Source: Octopus vulgaris
Lineage: Eukaryota
Direction: 5' to 3'
DNA length: 64,000 bases
Assembly: GCA_951406725.2 (NCBI GenBank)
Contig: OX597818.1
Coordinates: 23,436,001-23,500,000 of the forward strand
Positions 2,931 to 54,679 of this stretch are shown here, piece by piece. A program made the translations under genes and the position numbers. Positions within the stretch are counted from its first letter, which is position 1. Every line of letters begins with the position of its first letter. Under the pieces are notes generated by a model, which saw only the letters and a list, made by a program, of their open reading frames with translations, was not told where the DNA came from and made no database searches.

Positions 2931-4315
2931 AAAAAGAATATTCAAAATAAACATTCTAGACATTTCCAAAACTGCCCTTATTTATTATGGCTTCAAAATT
3001 ATAACCCATGTTAGCTTTTACTTTCAATTCAATCCCATTGTATTGAGACTAGTAACATACTAGTACCTATTTTATTAATTTTCAAATGAATGAGCAGTAA
3101 AGTTCGCTAAAATGGTAACTTAATTACAAACAGTGAGATTCTGAACTTTAAAAAAATGCATGTGAAGAAATAACATTAAAACAATAGTTGATTTATCAAT
3201 ATTGGGTTCTTGAACTCTCAAGATTTACACCAAACTCTATAACTTACAACTGCCAGGCATATGTATGACAGCTTCCAGAAATGTATGTCAGACCCTGGCA
3301 TCCTTTCCTGAGAGAGAAAAATCTATGATTTCCTTTGATGCTACAGAGTCCAAATATTGGTTTCAAAGTTTGGTACAAGGTCAACAATTTCAGGGGAGGG
3401 GTAAGTTGATTGTATCAACCCCAGTGTTCAACTGGTACTTATTTTATTGACACCAAAAGGACAAAAGGCAAAGTCGGCCTCAGTGGAATTTGAACTCAGA
3501 ATGTAAGGACAGATGAAATGCAGCAAAGCATTTTGCCTAGTGTGCCAGCAATTCTGCTAGCTTGCTGCCCACAGGGTCCAAATATTATGAACCTTCATAC
3601 CTCAAAGAATCATTGATCATATCCTTAGGTTTTAAGTCAATCAAATAGCTTGTAAAAACTACTTAAGTCAAAATTTTGAAGCCATAATTAACACCTGTTT
3701 TGAACATGTCACATATTTTCAATTTACTAATGTGAAATAAATTTATCATAGCTAAAATTATTCCAATGAAATTAAAAATAAACCTAACAGTTAACTATAA
3801 CCTTCATTTTTAAAAAATGAGTTGAGGGAAATAACTTAAACAGGTCAATGGCATGAATAAATTAAGGAGAAATATACTGATTGGCATATGCAGGCAAATT
3901 GTTAATTGGAATTTTCATTTTAGCTGGAGAATAAACATCAAAACCTGTGATTGAAAAAAGAAAAAAACTAGGCATCATCAAAAACATGCTTTAGAGAAAA
4001 TGTGATTGTTGTTGTGGGCACAGGGAAAAACTAACAATCATGCCTTAACCTTATTTGACCTCATTTGCTTAAATTTGATAAAACTTTATGGTTTGATCAA
4101 TGGGGAGATCCTTCTTAATTAAACACAAGAGTTTTCTTCCAGTGCATTTAACTTTTAATCAACTACTTTTGTTATAGTAATTATACCATATAAGCATTAC
4201 TTTATTGACCCTCCCAAAATAAAAAAAAAATCAGTAACCTCATCTGTATTTGAATACAAAAACACTAAAGCACTAAAATGTGATCCCATAATAGTAGTGC
4301 TAAATATGACATATA

Positions 4316-5156
4316 TAGGGTGTTCCAAAAGTCATTAATGGGTTTCAATTTCTAATAACTTCCTTAACTTTACAAATAAATGCATGAAATTTTGATAGAA
4401 TATAAAGGACATAATGGAAATTAATATGCACAAGTCAAATTTTGCAAAACCACTACATTACTTATGAAAAATGACATCGCTTAAATGGCAGCCATTTCTG
4501 GCTTTGCATGCCCATCCAAAACTTGCACCATAACACTCTCAAGAGTTTCAGACCCCTCTTCTCTGATTTCTCTATTGATGTTCTCCTTCAGTTACACCAG
4601 GGTCACTGGTTTGTTGACATAAACTCTCTCTTTCAGATATCCATGATTGAGACCTTTTTGTGCCCAGCCATTCAAAGTAGACCTCACACATGGTTTCAGC
4701 AAGATGGGGCAACTGCTCATACCACAAGAGAAACAATGCAGTTGCTATAGCAGTGCTTTGGAGAGAGAATAATTTTCCACAACAGCAATGTCAACTAGCT
4801 TTCACAGATTTTTTGCTGTGGGGATACCTGAAAGAGAGGGTTTATGTCAACATAGCAGAGACCCTGGTGCAACTGAAGGAGAACATCAATAGAAAAATCA
4901 GCGAAGTGGAGGTCTGAAACTCTTGAGGGTGTTATGGTGCAAGTTTTGGAATGAGCATGGGCATACGAAACCAAAAATGGCTGTCATTTAAGCGATGTCA
5001 TTTTTGATAGGTGATGTAGTGGTGTTTCAAAATTTGACTTGTGAATATTAATTTCCATCATGTCCTTTATATTGTATCAAGATTTCATGCATTTATATGT
5101 AAAGTTAAGGAAGTTATTAGAAATTGAAACCTATCAGTGACTTTTGGAACACCCTA
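4316..5156. mobile_element. Non-autonomous Tc1/mariner derivative with about 330-bp inverted arms and a transposase remnant
   Basis: TA-flanked TAGGGTGTTCCAAAAGTCA / TGACTTTTGGAACACCCTA. Internal + strand remnants TWFQQDGATAHT and DFLLWGYLKERVY are catalytic-domain motifs of Tc1/mariner transposases. Confidence 0.85.
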
Positions 5157-5174
5157 TACACATTATATATATAT

Positions 5175-12254: not shown

Positions 12255-13270
12255 TCTACCCTAAAGTCCAACCCCTCCTCAAAGCGTTAGGGATGGTGTA
12301 AACGGGCAGTGTCAGAGCTATGCCGTTGGGAACTTCGGTTCCTGGTAGGGCCACCCAAGGCGGATTGGTCTGGCACTGAGTGGTATTAGGGTCGCAGCCT
12401 GGCCAATGGGGCTCTGGTGAAAATTCCAAGAGGCGTCTGATCGACAGCTTCGCGGTCGTTCTGTCCCTGCATCTGTGGAGACTCCACGGCAAACAGGGCA
12501 TCCCGTCACTCGGGACGTGCATGCAGGATGTCCAGGACCGCTTGTGAATTCAATATTCCCAGGAAACCTCTTCTATGAGAGAAGAAGCCAGCTCAACCCG
12601 CCCTGGGTGAACGCCGTCACAAGTAAAAAGTAAGCCATCTCTAAAATGGGTAACCTCTCTGACCCTACCAACTATCAAATATGTCAGTCTCACTTCCAAC
12701 ATCTCAAAAGTGATAGAGACAATCACAAACACATTCAATACCATAAGTTTCATTTCTTCTTCAATGAGTACCAATATGGCTTCCATAAATCCAGATCTAC
12801 ATGGAACTCACATTTATATGTCCCTAACTCTTAACCCTTTCGTTACTGTATTTATTTTAAGATGCTCTGTGTTTCTTTCAATTATTTAAAATATAACAAA
12901 GAATTTAGTAAAATAACCTAGTTATCATTAAGCTAGTGTTAGGAATATAAATTGCGACTAAGGTTTGGTGGTATATTTTGATGCAAAACTTATGAAAACA
13001 AGACATTTGTACTACAGAGCCAGTTGGTAACGAAAGGGTTAAGAAACTTAGCAAAAGCAATACCAGCACTTGAAATCAGTAAAGCATTTGTGTTTAGCAT
13101 GAAAATCTCAGGGCTAAATTAACTGCCTATAGCTTTAACTGTTACCCATCTCCTGAGTTGAAAGCTTCCAGTTATATCAAATCCCGTTGCAGCATGCACT
13201 GATGGAGTTCTTTCAAACTAAAACTCTATAAACTTGGGCATGCTCCAAGGTTAGATTATGTTGCCTGCAC
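12255..13270 (+). mobile_element. LINE remnant: GC-rich structured 5' leader (12255-12640) and RT fragments (12650-12830, 13050-13270), interrupted by a MITE
   Basis: GAGCTATGCCG...CCTGGTAGGGCCACCCAAGGCGGATTGGTC resembles RTE/BovB 5'UTR motifs as I recall them. SDPTNYQIC...FNEYQYGFHKSRST is an RT domain-0/1 remnant. Leader and RT pieces may not come from the same element. Confidence 0.5.
12831..13042. mobile_element. piggyBac-type MITE, family A
   Basis: TTAA-CCCTTTCGTTAC...GTAACGAAAGGG-TTAA. Second copy in opposite orientation at 46173-46401. Confidence 0.85.
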
Positions 13271-20953: not shown

Positions 20954-22247
20954 CGAGGGGCGTTCAATAAGTAATGCCCCTGACCCACTTCGCATAGCAG
21001 TAGAGCAACGAAACTTGGCACAGTTATTAGTCTTTTTATACATAGGAACCACCCAGAGTTACGCATTTCTCCCATCGTTTGATGCAGCCCTGGAGACTGT
21101 TTTTCTAGAAGACCCCAGCTTGGTCCTCCAGCCACGACGTGACTTCAGAAATCAAGGCTGCATCATCTGGGAAACGCCTTCCTTTCAAAAACAACTTCAT
21201 GGCTGGGAAGAGGTGAAAATCAGAGGGTGCAAGGTCAGGAGTGTAGGGGGGATGGGGGAGGAGTTCATAGCAGCACGCCTGCGCTTCTGATCTGGCGACA
21301 CGCGAGTTGTGGATCGGAGCGTTGTCCTGCAGGAGGAGGATGCCTTTGCTGATCTTGCCCCGCCTCTTGATTTTGATAGCTTCTCTTAATTTCATCAAAA
21401 GTGAAGCATAATAGGCTCCTGTAATTGTGGTAACATTTGCCAGAAAATCTGTCATCACTATTCCGTCCTGGTCCCAGAAGACTGTGAGCATGACCTTACC
21501 AGCGGAGGGCTGCACCCTTGCCTTCTTTGGAGGAGGTGAGTCACGGTGCTTCCACTGCATTGACTGGGCTTTGGTCTCTAGATCATAGTGATGGACCCAG
21601 GTTTCATCCTGTGTAATCATTCTTTTGAAAAATTTTGACTCATGTTCTTGGCACATCTCCAAATTCATCCTCGAGCACTCGACGCATTCTTGCTTCTGGA
21701 AAGGTGTGAGCAACCTGGGAATCCATCTGGCAGACACCTTTTTGCATATGCAAATGGTCATGAATGATAGTTTCCACAGACCCGGTACTAATCTTGACCT
21801 CATGGGCTATTTGGCGAATAGTTATGCGTCGATCTTCCAAAATAGCAGCCTCAACTTGATGGACAGATGCCTCATCAATGGCAGAAGGGGGGCGACCAGA
21901 TCTGGGGGCTGTTTCCACAAAGTTCCGACCATGTTTGAATTCACGATGCCAGCGTTTTACAAGGTCATATGATGGGGCATTATCACCATAAGTTACTTTC
22001 ATTTCATCAAAAGTCTCCCGTGGTGTGCGTCCTTTCAAATACAAAAACCGGATCACTGCTCGACACTCAACAGGCTCCATTTCACACTTGACTCAGTTCA
22101 AACACCTGTAAATCAAAAACCACAATTAGTTCAGAGCTGTGATTCGCCACGTAATCTATAGAGATATAAATAATTGCACATGCAGAATTTCAGCTAGATC
22201 AAACTACTGCAAGTGGGTCAGAGGCATTACTTATTGAATGTCCCTCG
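20954..22247 (-). mobile_element. Full-length mariner transposon (about 1.29 kb, DD34D)
   Basis: TA-flanked TIRs CGAGGGGCGTTCAATAAGTAATGCCCCTGACCC / GGGTCAGAGGCATTACTTATTGAATGTCCCTCG. Confidence 0.95.
21027..22080 (-). pseudogene. Mariner transposase pseudogene
   Basis: HTH region, W(I)PRLLT, QDETWVHHY, LLQDNAPIH and HPPYTPDLAPSDFHLF are all present. One extra base in the T-run 21739-21743 and premature stops at 21105-07 and near 21036. Confidence 0.92.
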
Positions 22248-41599: not shown

Positions 41600-43900
41600 A
41601 ACAATTATTCCTGGAGATTAAGACATGTAATAAATTACTGTAAACACTACTGGAAAATTTGTCGAAATCGCTTCACAGCGGACTATTTTTTTGTCATCTC
41701 CAAACTGCTTGGCGTAAGAACACTTGAGTAGTGATTCGCCTATCAACATGGCGAACATGTTTGCGTACAGGTGGTCTTGGCTACCTCTTAGCCTGTTATT
41801 TTATTTGGATTTATCCCTTTTTCTTACTGTCCAGGCGAAACGATTCGGTTCAGATTCTAAGACCATTCATCTGCCAGAAACAGGGTCAGATTTATACAAT
41901 GTTGATGATAGAACTCGTATATTGAAAGTGGACCCGAATTTCGACAAGAATCGAGCGATGTCGATGCTCTCACCAGACGAGACATTATTTAATAACGATA
42001 ATGTTGGTGATAATAAAATACGAAAGAAGCGTGAAGCATCGTCGCCTTTTCTTACTAACATGACTACAGAGGTAAGAATTTTTCACAGTTTCTCTTTATT
42101 GCTTCCTGTCGTTTGGCCGGTTAAAGCAACCAATTCCTTACCTCATGTTTGTATTCTTCAGCACCCTGACGTCAGGCTCATTATCTATGTCTTGTGTATC
42201 TATGTTTACTATAACTTGATACTGTCGATTTTTAGTCTTACTATTTTGCCTAGTTTCATAGTCTCTTTGTTGCCTTTTTATTTACTCTACCAGTGAGAAA
42301 TTATTGTCATAAATCTTATTCCTGCTGCCACTTCTTTTTGTTTGTTATCTTTGTGATTATTATTGCTGTAGTCAAGGCGTTCACCCAGATATTATCGAAG
42401 GCGACTGCCCAACAATGTAAATATTGTTTTTCCTTCCCACTATTATTGCTCAACACACGCAGAACGGTTTTAATCCATATGTAAATAATCCATCCTTAGT
42501 TCCTCCTTGCTCAACTAAAATCATTTTTTTTTTTATCAATTAATTAAATGACTAAGAAAAAAAATTGCTATATATGGTAAAATTATATTTATCTGGAAAA
42601 CCAACTCGCTACATTGTGTATCACTAAATATTTTCTTTCGATTTCTGGTGTGTACATGGACACACGCACACACATATCGAGAATAATGTATTCATTTATG
42701 CTGTCTTGATTACGATTGTCTAATATCTGATATTTTTGTGTGTTCTCTGTCTTACGTTGATAATAATATTACTTACATACGAGTGATTACTTTATGTTCT
42801 AAATTTTTTGAGTAATTTTATTCATTATATTAAGGTGGTCCGCACGGTGTGCACCACTTTCTTGTTTTATATATTTCTGACTGGTTATGTAAGTAAATGC
42901 ATCTTTGGTCGAGTGAGGTGGACCCTGAAATTCCGAGGAAGGGCATAGCAAAAATTTAGTAGAATCATATGTTATACCAATTTAAACTTTAATTGTACTG
43001 TTTAATTATAATTAAAAATTGTTTCATCCCAGTTCGACTGGTTTGATGGAACATGGCAAAAGTGTTAGAAGAACCTAAATTATTTACCTATAGAACTTCT
43101 CTGTTGTCAAGACAAAAGCATGTCAGACAACTACGACGGTTCCGCTGAAAGATGCTGATATACATAAAAGGCAAGGATGAAGACATTTCTTATAACAGGA
43201 GAAGTATACGTATTGATATATTCTTGTCGCAAAATGAAATTTGCGACTGGAGTAAAAACCATAGAACTCGACAGTAAACTACCAAAGATCCAGAAATTAG
43301 GCATGAAAGCCTCTGTACAGTTACATAAAGAAAGGAAAATAAAATTCATATTTAAATGCGTATTTCATTCAGACAAATAAAAACATCCCCCTCCTTCTGT
43401 CTCGTTGAGAAGGTTTATTGTGTATATCGTAAACAATCTAAAAATAACTACAATTCAGTGGACTTCCCAAGTCTTTTCACACTTTCTTTACCCGCTGTTT
43501 ATGACGCCGATTCAAAATTGTTTCGTTCACCAAACCTCCTCTCCGAATACGTCAAAAATAAGAAAATGAATGATGTCAAGTGGTAAGTCGAGCAGGACAA
43601 GTGGTCAGTTTAAATTCGTGACAGTTCGTGGTGAGAGCATCACATCATTGCTATCTATAGCAATTTGAATGAATTCCATTGACAGGAAAGAAGAAAAAAA
43701 ACCACCAAAAAGAGAGAGATTGTACGTTTGTACGAATTGTAGTTGGCTCCTCTACGCGACCAAATATCCTTCAGATCATATCCTATTGTTTTCAGGGAAG
43801 AAAAGAAGGGGGAAAAAAGCCCATCAGATAATGTAGTCTTAGATATACCAGGTCTCATAATAAAAAAGGGATGATATTGCTCGGACGACTTTGACCACAG
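41600..43900 (+). promoter_or_regulatory. CpG-retaining 5' region of the SORL1-like gene
   Basis: More CpGs than the flanks; YY1-like CAACATGGCG over the start codon; full CRE inside the 12-bp palindrome CCTGACGTCAGG at 42165-42176. Confidence 0.45.
41748..42071 (+). CDS. SORL1: First coding exon of a Vps10p-family receptor, probably sortilin-related receptor (108 codons)
   Basis: Strong Kozak CAACATGG; hydrophobic signal peptide ending VQA; furin site RKKR 13 aa before a phase-0 donor GAG|gtaaga. This matches the exon-1 architecture of SORL1 as I recall it. The exon is well supported; the gene name is an inference because no Vps10 domain exon is in the window. Confidence 0.6.
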
Positions 43901-46172: not shown

Positions 46173-46401
46173 TTAACCCTTTCATTACCAACCCGGCCAA
46201 AACTGGCTCTGGCTCTGTAGTACAAATGTCTTGTTTTCATAAGTTTTGCATTAAAATATACCACCAAACCTTAGTCACAATTTATGTTCCTAACACTAGC
46301 TTAATGATAACTAAGTTATTTTACTAAACTCTTTGTTATATTTAAAATAATTGAAAGAGACACAGAGAATCTCAAAATAAATACAGTAACGAAAGGGTTA
46401 A
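46173..46401. mobile_element. piggyBac-type MITE, family A
   Basis: TTAA-CCCTTTCATTAC...GTAACGAAAGGG-TTAA; reverse complement of 12831-13042. Confidence 0.85.
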
Positions 46402-50653: not shown

Positions 50654-51720
50654 ATAGGATGTTCAGGCTAAATTTGACAGTTTACATAAAAGGAAAAGAA
50701 AACACACTATCCCATCCAAAACGTCCTTTAAAATAATCAGAAAATATCAACTTGATTATGACTGAGAGATAACAAAGTAGCTGCTCTCAGTTTGCACCAT
50801 GGTCTTGAGATGGCTCCAGAATTTGGTGCATTCATTCCTCAGTGTCCTTGGGAAGATCTTCAAACACTTCTTTGGTTTTATCTTTGGTGTTGCTGAGAGA
50901 GCAGTTGGTGTCTTTCTCAACTGTATCTGATATGTCATTGAGTGAATCAGGAGGCCAGAAATTGGGGTTGGTTAAGTTTTGGAAATTCTCTGACAACCAC
51001 TTCTGACTCTTTCTGGAGATATGGCAAGAAGCTGAATCTTGAAGGTAGAACATATATGGCCTTCCAGCAGCAACCCTCTCCATCCAGAGTTTGACCACAG
51101 TCTCCATCAGCTTCACATAGCCATCTGAATTGAGCCTAAGGCCCTGTTCAAAGATGTGGGGCAACATGATGTCACCTTCTCTGGAGACACATCCAAAGAC
51201 CATCACAGTTTGGGGGACCTTGGTTTTCATGATACATGGGACATCACATGGATTGTAAGCAAACCACCTGTTGTTCAGGGTATTGTGCAACTGCTCCTGG
51301 CAGAAGTTCTTTTCACCTTTGTTCAAAGCCTCCCTGGACCTCAAGTGGCCTGAACTCTTTACATGAACACCACCCTGTACTTAACTCCATGTCCCCCTAC
51401 ATGGCTTTGCTATTTGCTTTTGAGCCAAATTAACTAACTAACTAACTAACCTAAGAACCAAATCATCCTCAGCTCAAGAGGATGCCTCAACTTGTTCAGG
51501 ATCTTCTTTGCTTTTGTCACATGGTTGTCCTTGGCCTTGCTTATCAGAATTTATCCTTTTCACCTCTTGTATGAGTTGTTGTTAAGATCCTCATTCATAG
51601 TCTCTGTTGTAGCTGTTGTCCATCAAAGAGCATTGAGCAGTAGTCATCATGTTGGCATTTTGATACCTGGCATGAATCATCATATTCAATATTCAATATT
51701 CTCCAATATTCAGATGGCTT
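50654..51720 (-). mobile_element. Tc1/mariner-superfamily (maT/DD37D-like) transposase remnant
   Basis: TVMVFGCVSREGDIMLPHIF...LQDSASCH...QKWLSEN...FWPPDS. One TIR-like end, TATAGGATGTTCAGGCTAAATTTGAC. Confidence 0.8.
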
Positions 51721-53199
51721 CCAGTCCTCCATGTCAACTAACTTTTTCTTAACTACAACTTTGAATTTAATGCTCTCCAACATTGTTGACTTTTCACCAG
51801 TTCATTAAGTTGTTCCTTAATGGAGACTTTAAAAAATCTTCAAAGTTAGCTCAAACACCCTGCACATAGAGTATGAGATCCAATTGAGCAAGGTAGTTCC
51901 ATAATACAATAAAGCAGGAATAGATCTGAATAAACTTGATATAAATTATATTCTCTAATTGACATAAGAGCCAACTCTGAAATTATTGAAAAACCTGGAT
52001 TATAAATCTCTAGAGGTCTGATAAGCTGCAAATGTTCTACACTCTAGATTAGGGTTAGGTGTCTTCATACTCTGCATGTATATGCCTAGATATATACACC
52101 TATCAGAAAGCAATGTCTAAATATCTAGAGATGTTGATCTGGGTTTATGAATTTCATCTGAAACTCCAAAAGTTATTGCAACAACTGCAAAGCCTCAGAA
52201 TTTCTGATGGCCTTTCTCAGCAACCCCCTTATACATAACATTGTTAAAACTGCATCCCAAAGACACTCTGTTCATGGTTAGTTGGTGATTCCATTTAAAG
52301 ATTAAGTCATACCTTCAATGGAATACTGCTGTCATATCTAGAACAGTATTAATGCTGAATTATTAAACATCTTTGGCTGCATTCAGTTAAGGGACATCTG
52401 AGTAATTGGTTAAAACTCACTCACCATTACGCTACAACTGCTGGCATGCAATGTACTGTCTCAACAACAACAGCCTCTGCTTCTCTAGCAAGGCTAGTTG
52501 TATACCACCTCCACACAACACATCTGCCTCTCCACCACAGTGGCTCACCCATTTTGTCCTTCATTCATTCATTTTCTTTCCTTCCTTCACAGAGCATCAT
52601 TTATCTGGAATTTCCTTCCCACCTACTATTTCCTTATAGACATCTAGTTATAGGCATTTAAGTTGAATATCAACTGTATCAGTCTCTCTAATCCCAGATG
52701 GTCTGTGAAGGTGATGGGCAATACTCCTCCTGAAGCTGTAAAAAAAAACATTAAAAGATATTTAAAGTGCTACAAAATTTTCTTTTCTTTAACAGCCACT
52801 GCTTTCTGGAAGTCTCTTACCATTAATGTAAATGAACATTACATAGAAAACTTTTTGAAAGAAAATAGCTTCAACTAAATGGGCTTTTATAGTATCATCC
52901 TATGTCTCTCAGTGTTTCATCACTATCTTTGAAGCACAAAATTCTGAAATTTTACCAATCTATTTCATCTCATATTTCCCTTAGTCTGTATTTAATGTAT
53001 GTATATATTTCTGCTCAGTGAAATAGGGAATGCTTTAAAGATAATGAAGATAGATAATACCTCAGGAAAAGATGATGTGACAATCAAACTGTTATGGAGT
53101 GGAGGGTAGCAGTTGTGACAAATCCTCATTCTATGTCACAATTGATAGTTGAATGAAGGAAAATATCTTTGTTGTGGAAGGAGTTGAATACTATTTTGC

Positions 53200-53570
53200 T
53201 TTATAAGAAGAATGATAGGGAATATCTGAGAAACTATTGCTTCATAGGCCTCTTGCCTCACTTCCACAAACTGTTTACAAAGTCATAGTTACCAAACTAT
53301 CAAAACATCTGTGATCAACAGTCAAACAAGCATGCAGAGTTTTAGATGAACTACAGCACAATAGACCACATATTCATTCTAACAGAGCTTTTAGAACGAG
53401 TGAAAGTTGCCTCCATATGTGAACTTTATTGATTATGTAAATGCTTTTGAAAGTATCAAGGTGAATACAGTACTGAAATCTCTGGAGATTCCAGGAGTTG
53501 AGGCACAATACATCAAACGTCTGAGTGAGGCAAACTTTGGATGTACCACTAACATAGTTCTGCTGGCATG
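53200..53570 (+). mobile_element. RTE-type RT fragment
   Basis: YSTIDHIFILTELLE...NFIDYVNAFES. Confidence 0.6.
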
Positions 53571-53754
53571 ACTTTAAGAAACAGGTACAGGCATGACTGT
53601 GTGGTTAAGAAACTTGCTTTGCAACCACAGGCTGTTGGGTTGACTCTCACTGCATGGCACCTTGAGCAAGTGGCTTCTGTTATAGCTGTGGCCCAACTAA
53701 TGCTTTATGAATGAATTTGGTAGATGGCAACTGTCTGGAAGTCTGTTTTTGTTT

Positions 53755-53797
<43 letters not shown>

Positions 53798-54617
53798 ATG
53801 TACATACATGTATATATGTATGTATGTATATATAATAATGATAGGGAATATTATTCCAAACTTACAGGGAAAAATTCAATTTAGTAATACTAAATCAAAT
53901 TTCACAATATATAATATATGTATATAAATTAGAGAAGAACCACCTTTATCAATTCAACAATGAAATAACAGTGATATAATTAAATTATACCATATGGAAA
54001 AAAAAATTAAATACACGATAAAACATATACCAATAATTGAGTAAAGTACAAGATAATAATAAATAAAAAGTATATAATTGGTAAATTATACCAATTATTC
54101 ATTCTAACAGAGCTTTAAGAACGAGTGAAAGCTGCCTCCATATGTAAAGTTTATTGATTATGTAAATGCTTTTGAAAGTATCAAGGTGAATGCAGTACTG
54201 AAATCTCTGGAGATTCCAGGAGTTGAAGCACAATAAATCAAACTTCTGTGTGAGGCAAACTTTGGATGTACCACTAACATAGTTCTGCTGGCATGACTTT
54301 AAGAAACAGGTACAGGCATGGCTATGTGGTTAAGAAACTTGCTTTGCAACCACAGGCTGTTGGGTTGACTCTCACTGCATGGCACCTTGAGCAAGTGTCT
54401 TCTGTTATAGCTGTGGCCCAACTAATGCTTTATGAATGAATATTGGTAAATTATACTAATTATTAACTTTTTATTTATTATTATTTTGTACTTTACTTAA
54501 TTATTGGTATATGTTTTATCGTATATTTAATTTTTTTTCTATATGGTATAATTTAATTATATCATTGTTATTTCAGTGTTTAATTGATAAAAGGTGGCTC
54601 TTCTCGAATTTATATAC
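53371..54617. repeat. 346-bp direct duplication (53371-53716 and 54096-54441); the second copy lies in the apex of an inverted repeat (53920-54076 / 54462-54617)
   Basis: Direct comparison of the sequences. Confidence 0.9.

Positions 54618-54679
<62 letters not shown>

What the first reader, a model, noticed from the sequence alone, without database searches (positions are those of the whole stretch)
53371..54617. Palindrome apex captured 346 bp of neighbouring DNA, with apex duplication and microhomology
Seen: 155-bp inverted arms in (TA)n. At their centre sits a near-identical direct copy (54096-54441) of 53371-53716, spanning an RT fragment and a SINE head, so the copy is not one element. 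The apex ATTGGTAAATTATAC(C/T)AATTA is present on both sides of the insert (54077-97 and 54442-62). The donor continues TTGGTA, matching the apex at the right junction, and TA/TATT overlaps at the left. Inference: a hairpin-tip break repaired by microhomology-primed copying from a local template, which stabilised the palindrome with a spacer; or template switching during retroelement insertion. Either route lets such elements capture host sequence.
Basis: partly seen in the sequence, partly recalled or inferred. Interest (0 to 1): 0.7.

Follow-up and report, generated by a model that had tools for sequence, protein, structure and literature searches.

The report
Repair scar inside Penelope retrotransposon palindrome
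Two mirror-image ends of a common Penelope-type jumping gene meet here, and between them sits a 346-base copy of the DNA next door with the palindrome's tip present on both sides, which is likely the scar of an ordinary repair event rather than a way for the element to carry host DNA around.

Summary
The structure is real. 54096-54441 copies 53371-53716 (12 of 346 differ), and a 21-23-nt apex stands on both sides in direct orientation. Contigs of two other runs each span one junction without a difference. The arms (about 170-185 bp, plus an 80-bp tail on the left) are 5'-truncated terminal repeats of a Hydra-clade Penelope-like retrotransposon, inserted head to head in (TA)n: longer copies carry a hammerhead motif and an RT + GIY-YIG frame. 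The spacer junction is unique among the matches scored. Two of 100 other family loci also hold locally copied DNA at the junction, not significantly above background (p=0.28). Best reading (0.6): the joined apex broke or stalled a fork and was mended by microhomology-primed copying from 725 bp upstream; capture during insertion is the main rival (0.25). Dating is only suggestive (p=0.08). Stabilisation by the spacer and mobilisation of host DNA are not supported. The scan noted the same architecture in this genome and a similar flank copy in another genome. Known kinds; modest interest.

The parts
53178..53568 (+). Decayed LINE reverse-transcriptase stretch (broken by stops and frameshifts); left part of the donor
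   Evidence: translations; tblastx to older relatives; relatives 69-79% identical; RTE-type label is recalled, Pfam gave no RT hit
53588..53733 (+). SINE head; the copy stops inside it at 53716
   Evidence: 12 other copies in the window, 68-76% identical
53371..53716 (+). Donor of the 346-bp copy
   Evidence: 334 of 346 identical to 54096-54441
53755..53833 (.). (TA)n/(TG)n/(TATG)n microsatellite, left target side
53834..54085 (-). Arm A: 3'-terminal 248 positions of the Penelope-like terminal repeat, including the 80-bp tail (53834-53913) that arm B lacks; stops about 5 nt short of the predicted hammerhead cut site
   Evidence: family positions 1-248, 95% to the family majority; cut site after position 253
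54077..54099 (+). Apex copy 1: 10-bp stem, 5-nt loop; ends in the left microhomology TATT
54096..54441 (+). 346-bp locally copied insert (direct copy of 53371-53716)
   Evidence: junction unique among scored matches; junction contigs
54442..54464 (+). Apex copy 2 (direct repeat of copy 1, one C/T difference); begins at the right microhomology TTGGTA
54451..54623 (+). Arm B: inverted copy of family positions 81-249, starting at the internal TA-rich site
   Evidence: 92.5% to the family majority; 171 of 184 columns match arm A
54611..54678 (.). (TACA)n/(TA)n microsatellite, right target side

Best explanation
The palindrome is a head-to-head pair of truncated end repeats of a Penelope-like retrotransposon in a TA microsatellite, and the 346-base copy with the doubled tip was likely added afterwards, when the joined tip likely broke or stalled a replication fork and was mended by copying from the DNA 725 bases upstream. 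Step 1 (architecture shown, chemistry inferred): both target strands primed reverse transcription on the element RNA, one at the 3' end (position 1), one at an internal TA-rich site (74-86); both products stopped at 246-249, just short of the hammerhead cut site, and were joined into an apex with a 5-nt loop. Step 2 (inferred): the apex was cut with a 21-23-nt stagger, each end keeping the loop (hairpin or cruciform tips opened on their 3' side), or a fork passed the loop and stalled. Step 3 (junctions shown, enzyme inferred): one end primed on the donor through 3-4 matching bases, copied 346 nt towards the element, and rejoined the other end through TTGGTA. The polymerase is unknown; the insert is long for polymerase theta, so a synthesis-dependent annealing or replication template switch is as likely.
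For: The apex stands twice with the same loop in direct orientation, which needs a finished double-stranded apex as template; two independent fold-backs would have to invent exactly complementary loops. Microhomology at both junctions. Copy and donor differ at 12 of 346 sites, the arms at 13 of 184 (p=0.084), and 12 of 346 is low against the pooled arm-pair divergence of 177 of 3081 (p=0.037); changes fall on both lineages, 7 in the copy and 5 in the donor. Arm pairs start out alike: 46 shared derived variants in 34 pairs against 8.5 expected, so arm divergence is a fair clock. Both junctions occur in other runs. Element identity.
Against: The locus-level age gap is not significant (p=0.084), the arms are 19% GC against 40% for the insert, and palindromic arms may mutate faster. 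No empty-apex allele was found. Two other members have locally copied DNA at the junction with divergences (3-10%) that fit the time of insertion, one of them (L222) also behind a short fold-back, which shows that the insertion-time route is open. The window's arms share no derived substitution in the 126 core columns compared, only a 3-nt insertion that other copies also seem to carry (table 4). Templated insertions by polymerase theta are generally under 25 bp (PMC12426944, passage).
Confidence: 0.6

Rival explanations
1. Capture during insertion: the two cDNA 3' ends, still unjoined, folded back on themselves and one of them hopped onto the neighbouring chromosome (element RT or a host repair polymerase) before the junction was sealed.
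For: L199 has a 305-nt spacer built from four patches 1.6-3.7 kb upstream, 87-95% identical, with arms 93.5% identical to each other; L222 has a fold-back followed by 243 nt copied from 900 bp away, 97% identical against 86% for the best distant copy; L205 has a 17-nt exact local match, controls 9-11. Short fillers are common at arm junctions. The donor lies 120 bp from the primer site.
Against: It must explain an identical loop on both sides; copy and donor are closer than the arms (p=0.084; 0.037 against the family pool). Junction-adjacent local copies are not significantly enriched: 2 of 28 testable junctions against 30 of 839 control windows, p=0.28.
Confidence: 0.25
2. Two steps: a 725-bp tandem duplication (donor, microsatellite, arm A, apex) followed by deletion of about 360 bp of the second copy between the two TTGGTA words, which removed the arm that paired with arm B.
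For: It gives exactly the same product; both junctions have microhomology. Deletion between short repeats at palindromes is recalled knowledge, not tested here.
Against: Needs two events and an unseen intermediate; both junctions fall within 23 nt of the apex, which one event explains at once; no joint pointing to a full duplication was listed (tables cut).
Confidence: 0.11
3. RNA-templated or endonuclease-driven insertion: a staggered cut at the apex gave a 21-23-bp target duplication and an RT copied a read-through transcript of the neighbouring DNA, primed at TTGGTA.
For: The doubled apex has the form of a target-site duplication; the anole Penelope protein cuts both strands at AT-rich sites, also in its own repeat (PMC11167929, parts 1-2 of 4 read).
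Against: No poly(A) or element tail on the insert; a donor 725 bp away is more simply a DNA template; no transcript data were obtained.
Confidence: 0.03
4. Assembly artefact at a hairpin between two microsatellites.
For: No long reads or raw reads were laid; no listed piece spans the whole structure; junction contigs are not listed for X1, X2, X4.
Against: X18 spans the left junction and X19 the right one with 0 differences; the X18 donor contig stops at 53454 and its junction contig at 54179, where the two copies first share a 31-mer, and its contig over the shared part has 1.3-1.5 times single depth against 1.40 expected; 12 differences split over both lineages.
Confidence: 0.01

Closest known systems
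Hydra-clade Penelope-like elements (Craig et al. 2021, PMC8557442; passages and section 11 read)
   Same: C-terminal GIY-YIG endonuclease without the CCHH motif, CxCX5C linker, DKT motif, CxxC and CxH near the end, hammerhead, (TA)n targets, inverted 5'-truncated copy with a tail on one side only.
   Different: Tail here 73-85 bp against the 30-40 bp given for PLEs in general; RWK reads KWK in the intact sister frame; long copies exceed 4 kb where Hydra elements are given as mostly under 3 kb; junction inserts are not described in the parts read.
Adineta vaga Penelope elements (Arkhipova et al. 2013, PMC3846280; passages)
   Same: Inverted pLTRs with palindromes at the inverted junction, optional tail, Asn-rich insert between RT and EN, unique host-derived spacers and sequences captured between pLTRs.
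   Different: There the captured DNA lies between direct pLTRs and can be moved to new places; here it lies at the inverted junction, is a copy of the adjacent flank and shows no sign of having moved.
Poseidon element of the green anole (Frangieh et al. 2024, PMC11167929; parts 1-2 of 4 read)
   Same: Both target strands are cut and extended; two RT start sites separated by the tail, as with positions 1 and 74-86 here.
   Different: In vitro the ribozyme cut was not needed and uncut RNA was the main template; here genomic ends pile up around the predicted cut site.
Templated insertions of microhomology-mediated end joining (review PMC12426944, passages; SD-MMEJ PMC2943611, search listing only)
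   Same: Insert copied from DNA near the break, primed and resolved by a few matching bases; patchworks of several segments as in L199.
   Different: Generally under 25 bp there, 346 bp here; apex duplicated; enzyme untested.

Membership tests
Penelope-like elements (EN+) | Single ORF with RT and GIY-YIG endonuclease linked to this terminal repeat | tested here: met
   L120/L189: arm A runs on into EN, linker and RT pieces (broken), then inverted arm B. Sister copy L307 has an open 841-aa frame, 79%, 54% and 61% identical to the three pieces, with a 72%-alike repeat directly upstream. Motifs read by eye; Pfam gave no RT or GIY-YIG hit; 18 full-length unnamed homologues, 9 with PF26215.
Penelope-like elements (EN+) | Hammerhead ribozyme motif in the pLTR | tested here: met
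   Core CUGAAGA, stem II, GAAAC, palindromic loop 3, GUA triplet and 3-bp stem I in 4 of 9 read-through copies tested with a strict pattern and in the sister repeat. Rfam did not call it in 10 loci. The window's arms stop before the motif.
Penelope-like elements (EN+) | Ribozyme self-cleavage | not testable with these tools
   needs an in vitro assay
Penelope-like elements (EN+) | Inverted 5'-truncated copy with a tail at one end only | tested here: met
   60 of 147 distinct loci were classed automatically as inverted A+B pairs (a few are doubtful); starts cluster at position 1-2 (61 of 170 arms) and 73-88.
Hydra clade | CxCX5C linker before the endonuclease | tested here: met
   CTCRDKSNC in L307; in L189 the motif is cut by a frame break after CTCRDKTT
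Hydra clade | No CCHH motif between GIY and YIG; CxxC and CxH around the conserved E and N | tested here: met
   one Cys between VVY and YIG/YMG; CYLC/CSLC and CRH/CKH
Hydra clade | DKT and RWK motifs in the RT region | tested here: inconclusive
   DKT present, KWK for RWK, in the sister frame only; the family's own copy L189 is truncated before them
Hydra clade | Insertion into (TA)n | tested here: met
   window and most of the loci printed, (TA)n or (AAT)n; not counted
Hydra clade | Placement in an RT phylogeny | not tested
   no named reference sequences were on hand
Neptune clade | CCHH motif inside the GIY-YIG core and CX2-5CxxC linker | tested here: not met
   against the definition; my first label was withdrawn
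MITE / DNA transposon with terminal inverted repeats | Symmetric fixed-length arms around a shared interior | tested here: not met
   arm ends vary from 30 to beyond 397 and independently of each other, some pairs do not overlap at all
Templated insertion by microhomology-mediated repair | Insert copied from DNA near the junction with microhomology at both ends | tested here: met
Templated insertion by microhomology-mediated repair | Dependence on polymerase theta | not testable with these tools
   length of 346 bp is atypical

The most novel reading that the evidence does not exclude
Hydra-clade Penelope elements integrate by reverse-transcribing one ribozyme-cut RNA twice, from both target strands, which leaves two free cDNA ends at the cut site; these are sealed by fold-back and by hopping onto chromosomal DNA within about 4 kb, so the family routinely writes local duplications and patchworks into its apices. 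The pile-up of ends at positions 238-262 (34 of 52 arms that reach it, against 10-22% in other 25-nt bins with any ends) would be genomic evidence that the hammerhead cut defines the template in vivo.
Probability: 0.25. Interest if true: 0.55.

Novelty: new member of a known kind. Interest (0 to 1): 0.3.

Why it matters
It is a clean, datable scar showing that the palindromes made by Penelope-like insertions in this animal genome can be sites of local copying, and it gives a test case for how the inverted junction of these elements is sealed, a step the papers read here call undefined. It does not show a new element or a route for moving host genes. The side result, cDNA ends clustered at the predicted ribozyme cut, bears on the open question of what the Penelope hammerhead does in vivo.

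Tried and rejected
Rfam scan of 10 loci found no hammerhead. Pfam found no RT or GIY-YIG in the L189 pieces or the L307 frame; two homologue searches with fragments were empty; no profile search of the representative-protein library and no Atlas look-up could be obtained, so clade placement rests on motifs. Neptune label: rejected. L232 as a third local capture: rejected, its 74 nt are an internal direct repeat of another high-copy element with the same 430-bp spacing elsewhere. L281 and L280: SINE sequence, local origin not distinguishable. Dating from other samples' donor contigs (5 differences in 225-250 nt, p=0.013 against the arms): withdrawn, because those contigs carry copy-derived alleles and may be donor and copy collapsed; X19 has an unbroken donor contig although it holds the right junction. 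For the same reason the missing junction contigs in X1, X2 and X4 do not show that they lack the duplication. A single-depth contig starting at 54443 in four runs is no evidence of an empty apex: an unrelated locus matches exactly those 20 bases. Spacer as stabiliser: no enrichment. Pure fold-back origin of arm B for the whole family: rejected, since some pairs do not overlap. Runs with small word shares were not used for any claim on habitat or strain. Paper searches showed no paper describing an apex duplication with a local insert in a PLE palindrome; the library is partial, most hits were seen as listings only, and no supplements were read (those of PMC8557442 hold the Hydra alignments and may bear on the clade call).

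Full report
Observation. The copy 54096-54441 matches 53371-53716 at 334 of 346 bases without gaps, 725 bp apart. The apex stands at 54077-54099 and 54442-54464, 22 of 23 identical and in direct orientation; its 21-nt pattern has exact matches only at these two places in the assembly. The left junction overlaps the donor by TATT; at the right the donor goes on TTGGTA, the start of the apex, with one extra A in the junction. The donor begins inside a decayed LINE RT stretch and ends inside a SINE head, so the copy is not one element. The arms align over 184 columns with 13 mismatches and 5 gap columns; the left arm has about 80 further bases (53834-53913). The genome is a 2.8-Gb animal assembly, octopus-like by one named protein hit and recalled SINE motifs.

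Is it real? A contig of run X18 spans the left junction (54059-54179, 0 differences) and one of X19 the right junction (54399-54506, 0 differences). X18's donor contig differs from the window at 9 of 455 bases, so it is not simply the assembled haplotype; both runs are of one study. X18's contig ends and depth fit a graph holding both copies. Seven of the 24 listed runs were laid, all as contigs; no raw or long reads. Whether X1, X2 and X4 carry the duplication cannot be told: no junction piece is listed for them, but X19 shows that the donor contig can be unbroken although the duplication is there, and their donor contigs carry alleles that are derived in the copy.

What the arms are. The left arm has 2131 first-look candidates in the genome. 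In 147 distinct loci, arms start either at family position 1 or at 74-86, an internal TA-rich stretch, and 60 loci were classed as head-to-head pairs; ends vary independently and some pairs do not overlap, which excludes a MITE and a pure fold-back origin. Copies that read on carry a minimal type I hammerhead motif on the sense strand (Rfam silent). One long copy (L120/L189) runs from this repeat through about 2.3 kb into broken endonuclease, linker and RT frames and ends in an inverted arm. A sister family has open frames of about 840 aa; in L307 a related repeat with a hammerhead lies directly before the frame. Its motifs (CxCX5C linker, no CCHH, DKT, CxxC, CxH) match the definition of the Hydra clade in Craig et al. 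2021 (PMC8557442, section 11); Pfam does not recognise the proteins and no tree was built. Inverted truncated copies with a one-sided tail are the known PLE layout, and two RT start sites with extension of both target strands were shown in vitro for an anole element (PMC11167929, parts 1-2 of 4). Within 34 pairs the two arms share 46 derived variants against 8.5 expected, and differ by 5.8% against 8.3% between loci: both arms come from one template, or were converted. Of 86 arms picked by an exact internal pattern, 34 of the 52 that reach position 238 end by 262, around the predicted cut after 253, against 10-22% in the other bins that have ends; a stall at stem II or the palindromic loop could give the same picture. 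The window's arms end at 246-249.

The spacer in the family. No other locus among 43 matches (40 scored of 210 candidates) joins the arm to this spacer. I fetched 10 kb around 100 family loci. Of 170 arms, 30 junction windows were testable; 5 had a locus-specific local match, 2 of them the window's own. L199 holds a 305-nt spacer made of four patches from 1.6-3.7 kb upstream, with only 3 matches genome-wide, all local. L222 has a short fold-back and then 243 nt copied from 900 bp away (97% local, 86% best elsewhere). L232 was dropped. L205 has a 17-nt exact local match. So local copying recurs (2 of 100 clear) but 2 of 28 junctions against 30 of 839 controls is not significant (p=0.28). Neither case doubles its apex by more than 2 nt. 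Spacers are not enriched in symmetric palindromes (6 of 18 against 9 of 33, p=0.75), so stabilisation is not supported.

Timing and mechanism. Copy and donor differ at 3.5%, the arms at 7.1% (p=0.084); against the family pool p=0.037. Seven changes are derived in the copy, five in the donor. This suggests, without proving, a copy about half as old as the insertion. The stronger argument is structural: the same loop on both sides in direct orientation is what a staggered break at a finished apex, or a fork that leaves after the loop and returns before it, would leave; this step is inference. I give 0.6 to repair or template switching after insertion, 0.25 to capture while the two cDNA ends were being sealed (as may hold for L199 and L222), 0.11 to tandem duplication plus deletion, 0.03 to RNA-templated insertion and 0.01 to artefact. 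The enzyme is untested; polymerase-theta inserts are generally under 25 bp (PMC12426944, passages).

Comparison and verdict. Host DNA captured in PLE spacers and palindromes at inverted junctions are described for Adineta (PMC3846280, passages), there between direct repeats and with movement to new sites; here nothing shows that the captured DNA moved. My paper searches showed no description of a doubled apex around a local insert, within a partial library. Also opened: bioRxiv 10.64898/2026.07.22.740005 (part 1 of 5) and PMC2718515 (passages); neither changes the reading. Earlier notes of this scan describe head-to-head Penelope insertions in this genome and a 101-nt inverted flank copy in another genome; they are unchecked AI notes, and I took from them only the lead to the Hydra clade, which I then tested. 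The finding is a real, well-preserved repair scar in a known kind of element: new member of a known kind, interest 0.3.

Noticed in passing
family-wide, positions 238-262 of the terminal repeat: 65% of arms that reach position 238 end within 25 nt around the predicted hammerhead cut site; possible in vivo footprint of ribozyme cleavage or of an RT stall at stem II.
   Followed up: partly
L199:4904-5208 (G000:C9:20319201-20319516): 305-nt apex spacer built from four patches of DNA 1.6-3.7 kb upstream, in both orientations.
   Followed up: yes
L222, G000:C5:6199536-6199778: Single arm ending in a 29-nt fold-back, then 243 nt copied from 900 bp away through a few matching bases.
   Followed up: yes
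L307:733-3258 and about ten further loci with open frames of 820-860 aa: A young sister Hydra-like family with intact frames, an Asn-rich stretch (32% N over residues 481-680) between RT and endonuclease, and its own hammerhead upstream.
   Followed up: partly
window 41718-42296 (+): 192-aa open frame with a Met, a hydrophobic stretch and an RKKR motif, perhaps the first coding exon of a secreted or membrane protein; no Pfam match. If so, the locus may lie in its intron.
   Followed up: partly
window 21108-22092 (-) and 50835-51380 (-): Tc1/mariner-type transposase remnants (PF01359 E=2e-23 for the first; weak DDE_3 for the second).
   Followed up: partly
window 4301-4642 / 4822-5171 and 12831-13023 / 46209-46401: Another inverted pair (88% over 350 bp) and a distant inverted match (95% over 193 bp).
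   Followed up: no
L132 and L133 (G000:C10:96.418 Mb and 96.478 Mb); L163 and L084 (C31 and C4): Near-identical family insertions with shared flanks at two places each: segmental duplications or duplicated haplotypes.
   Followed up: no
run X8 against X4, window 53871-54138: The family is laid at far lower summed depth in organism C than in organism B while SINE depth is similar, hinting that it spread after their split; summed contig depth is a weak measure.
   Followed up: no
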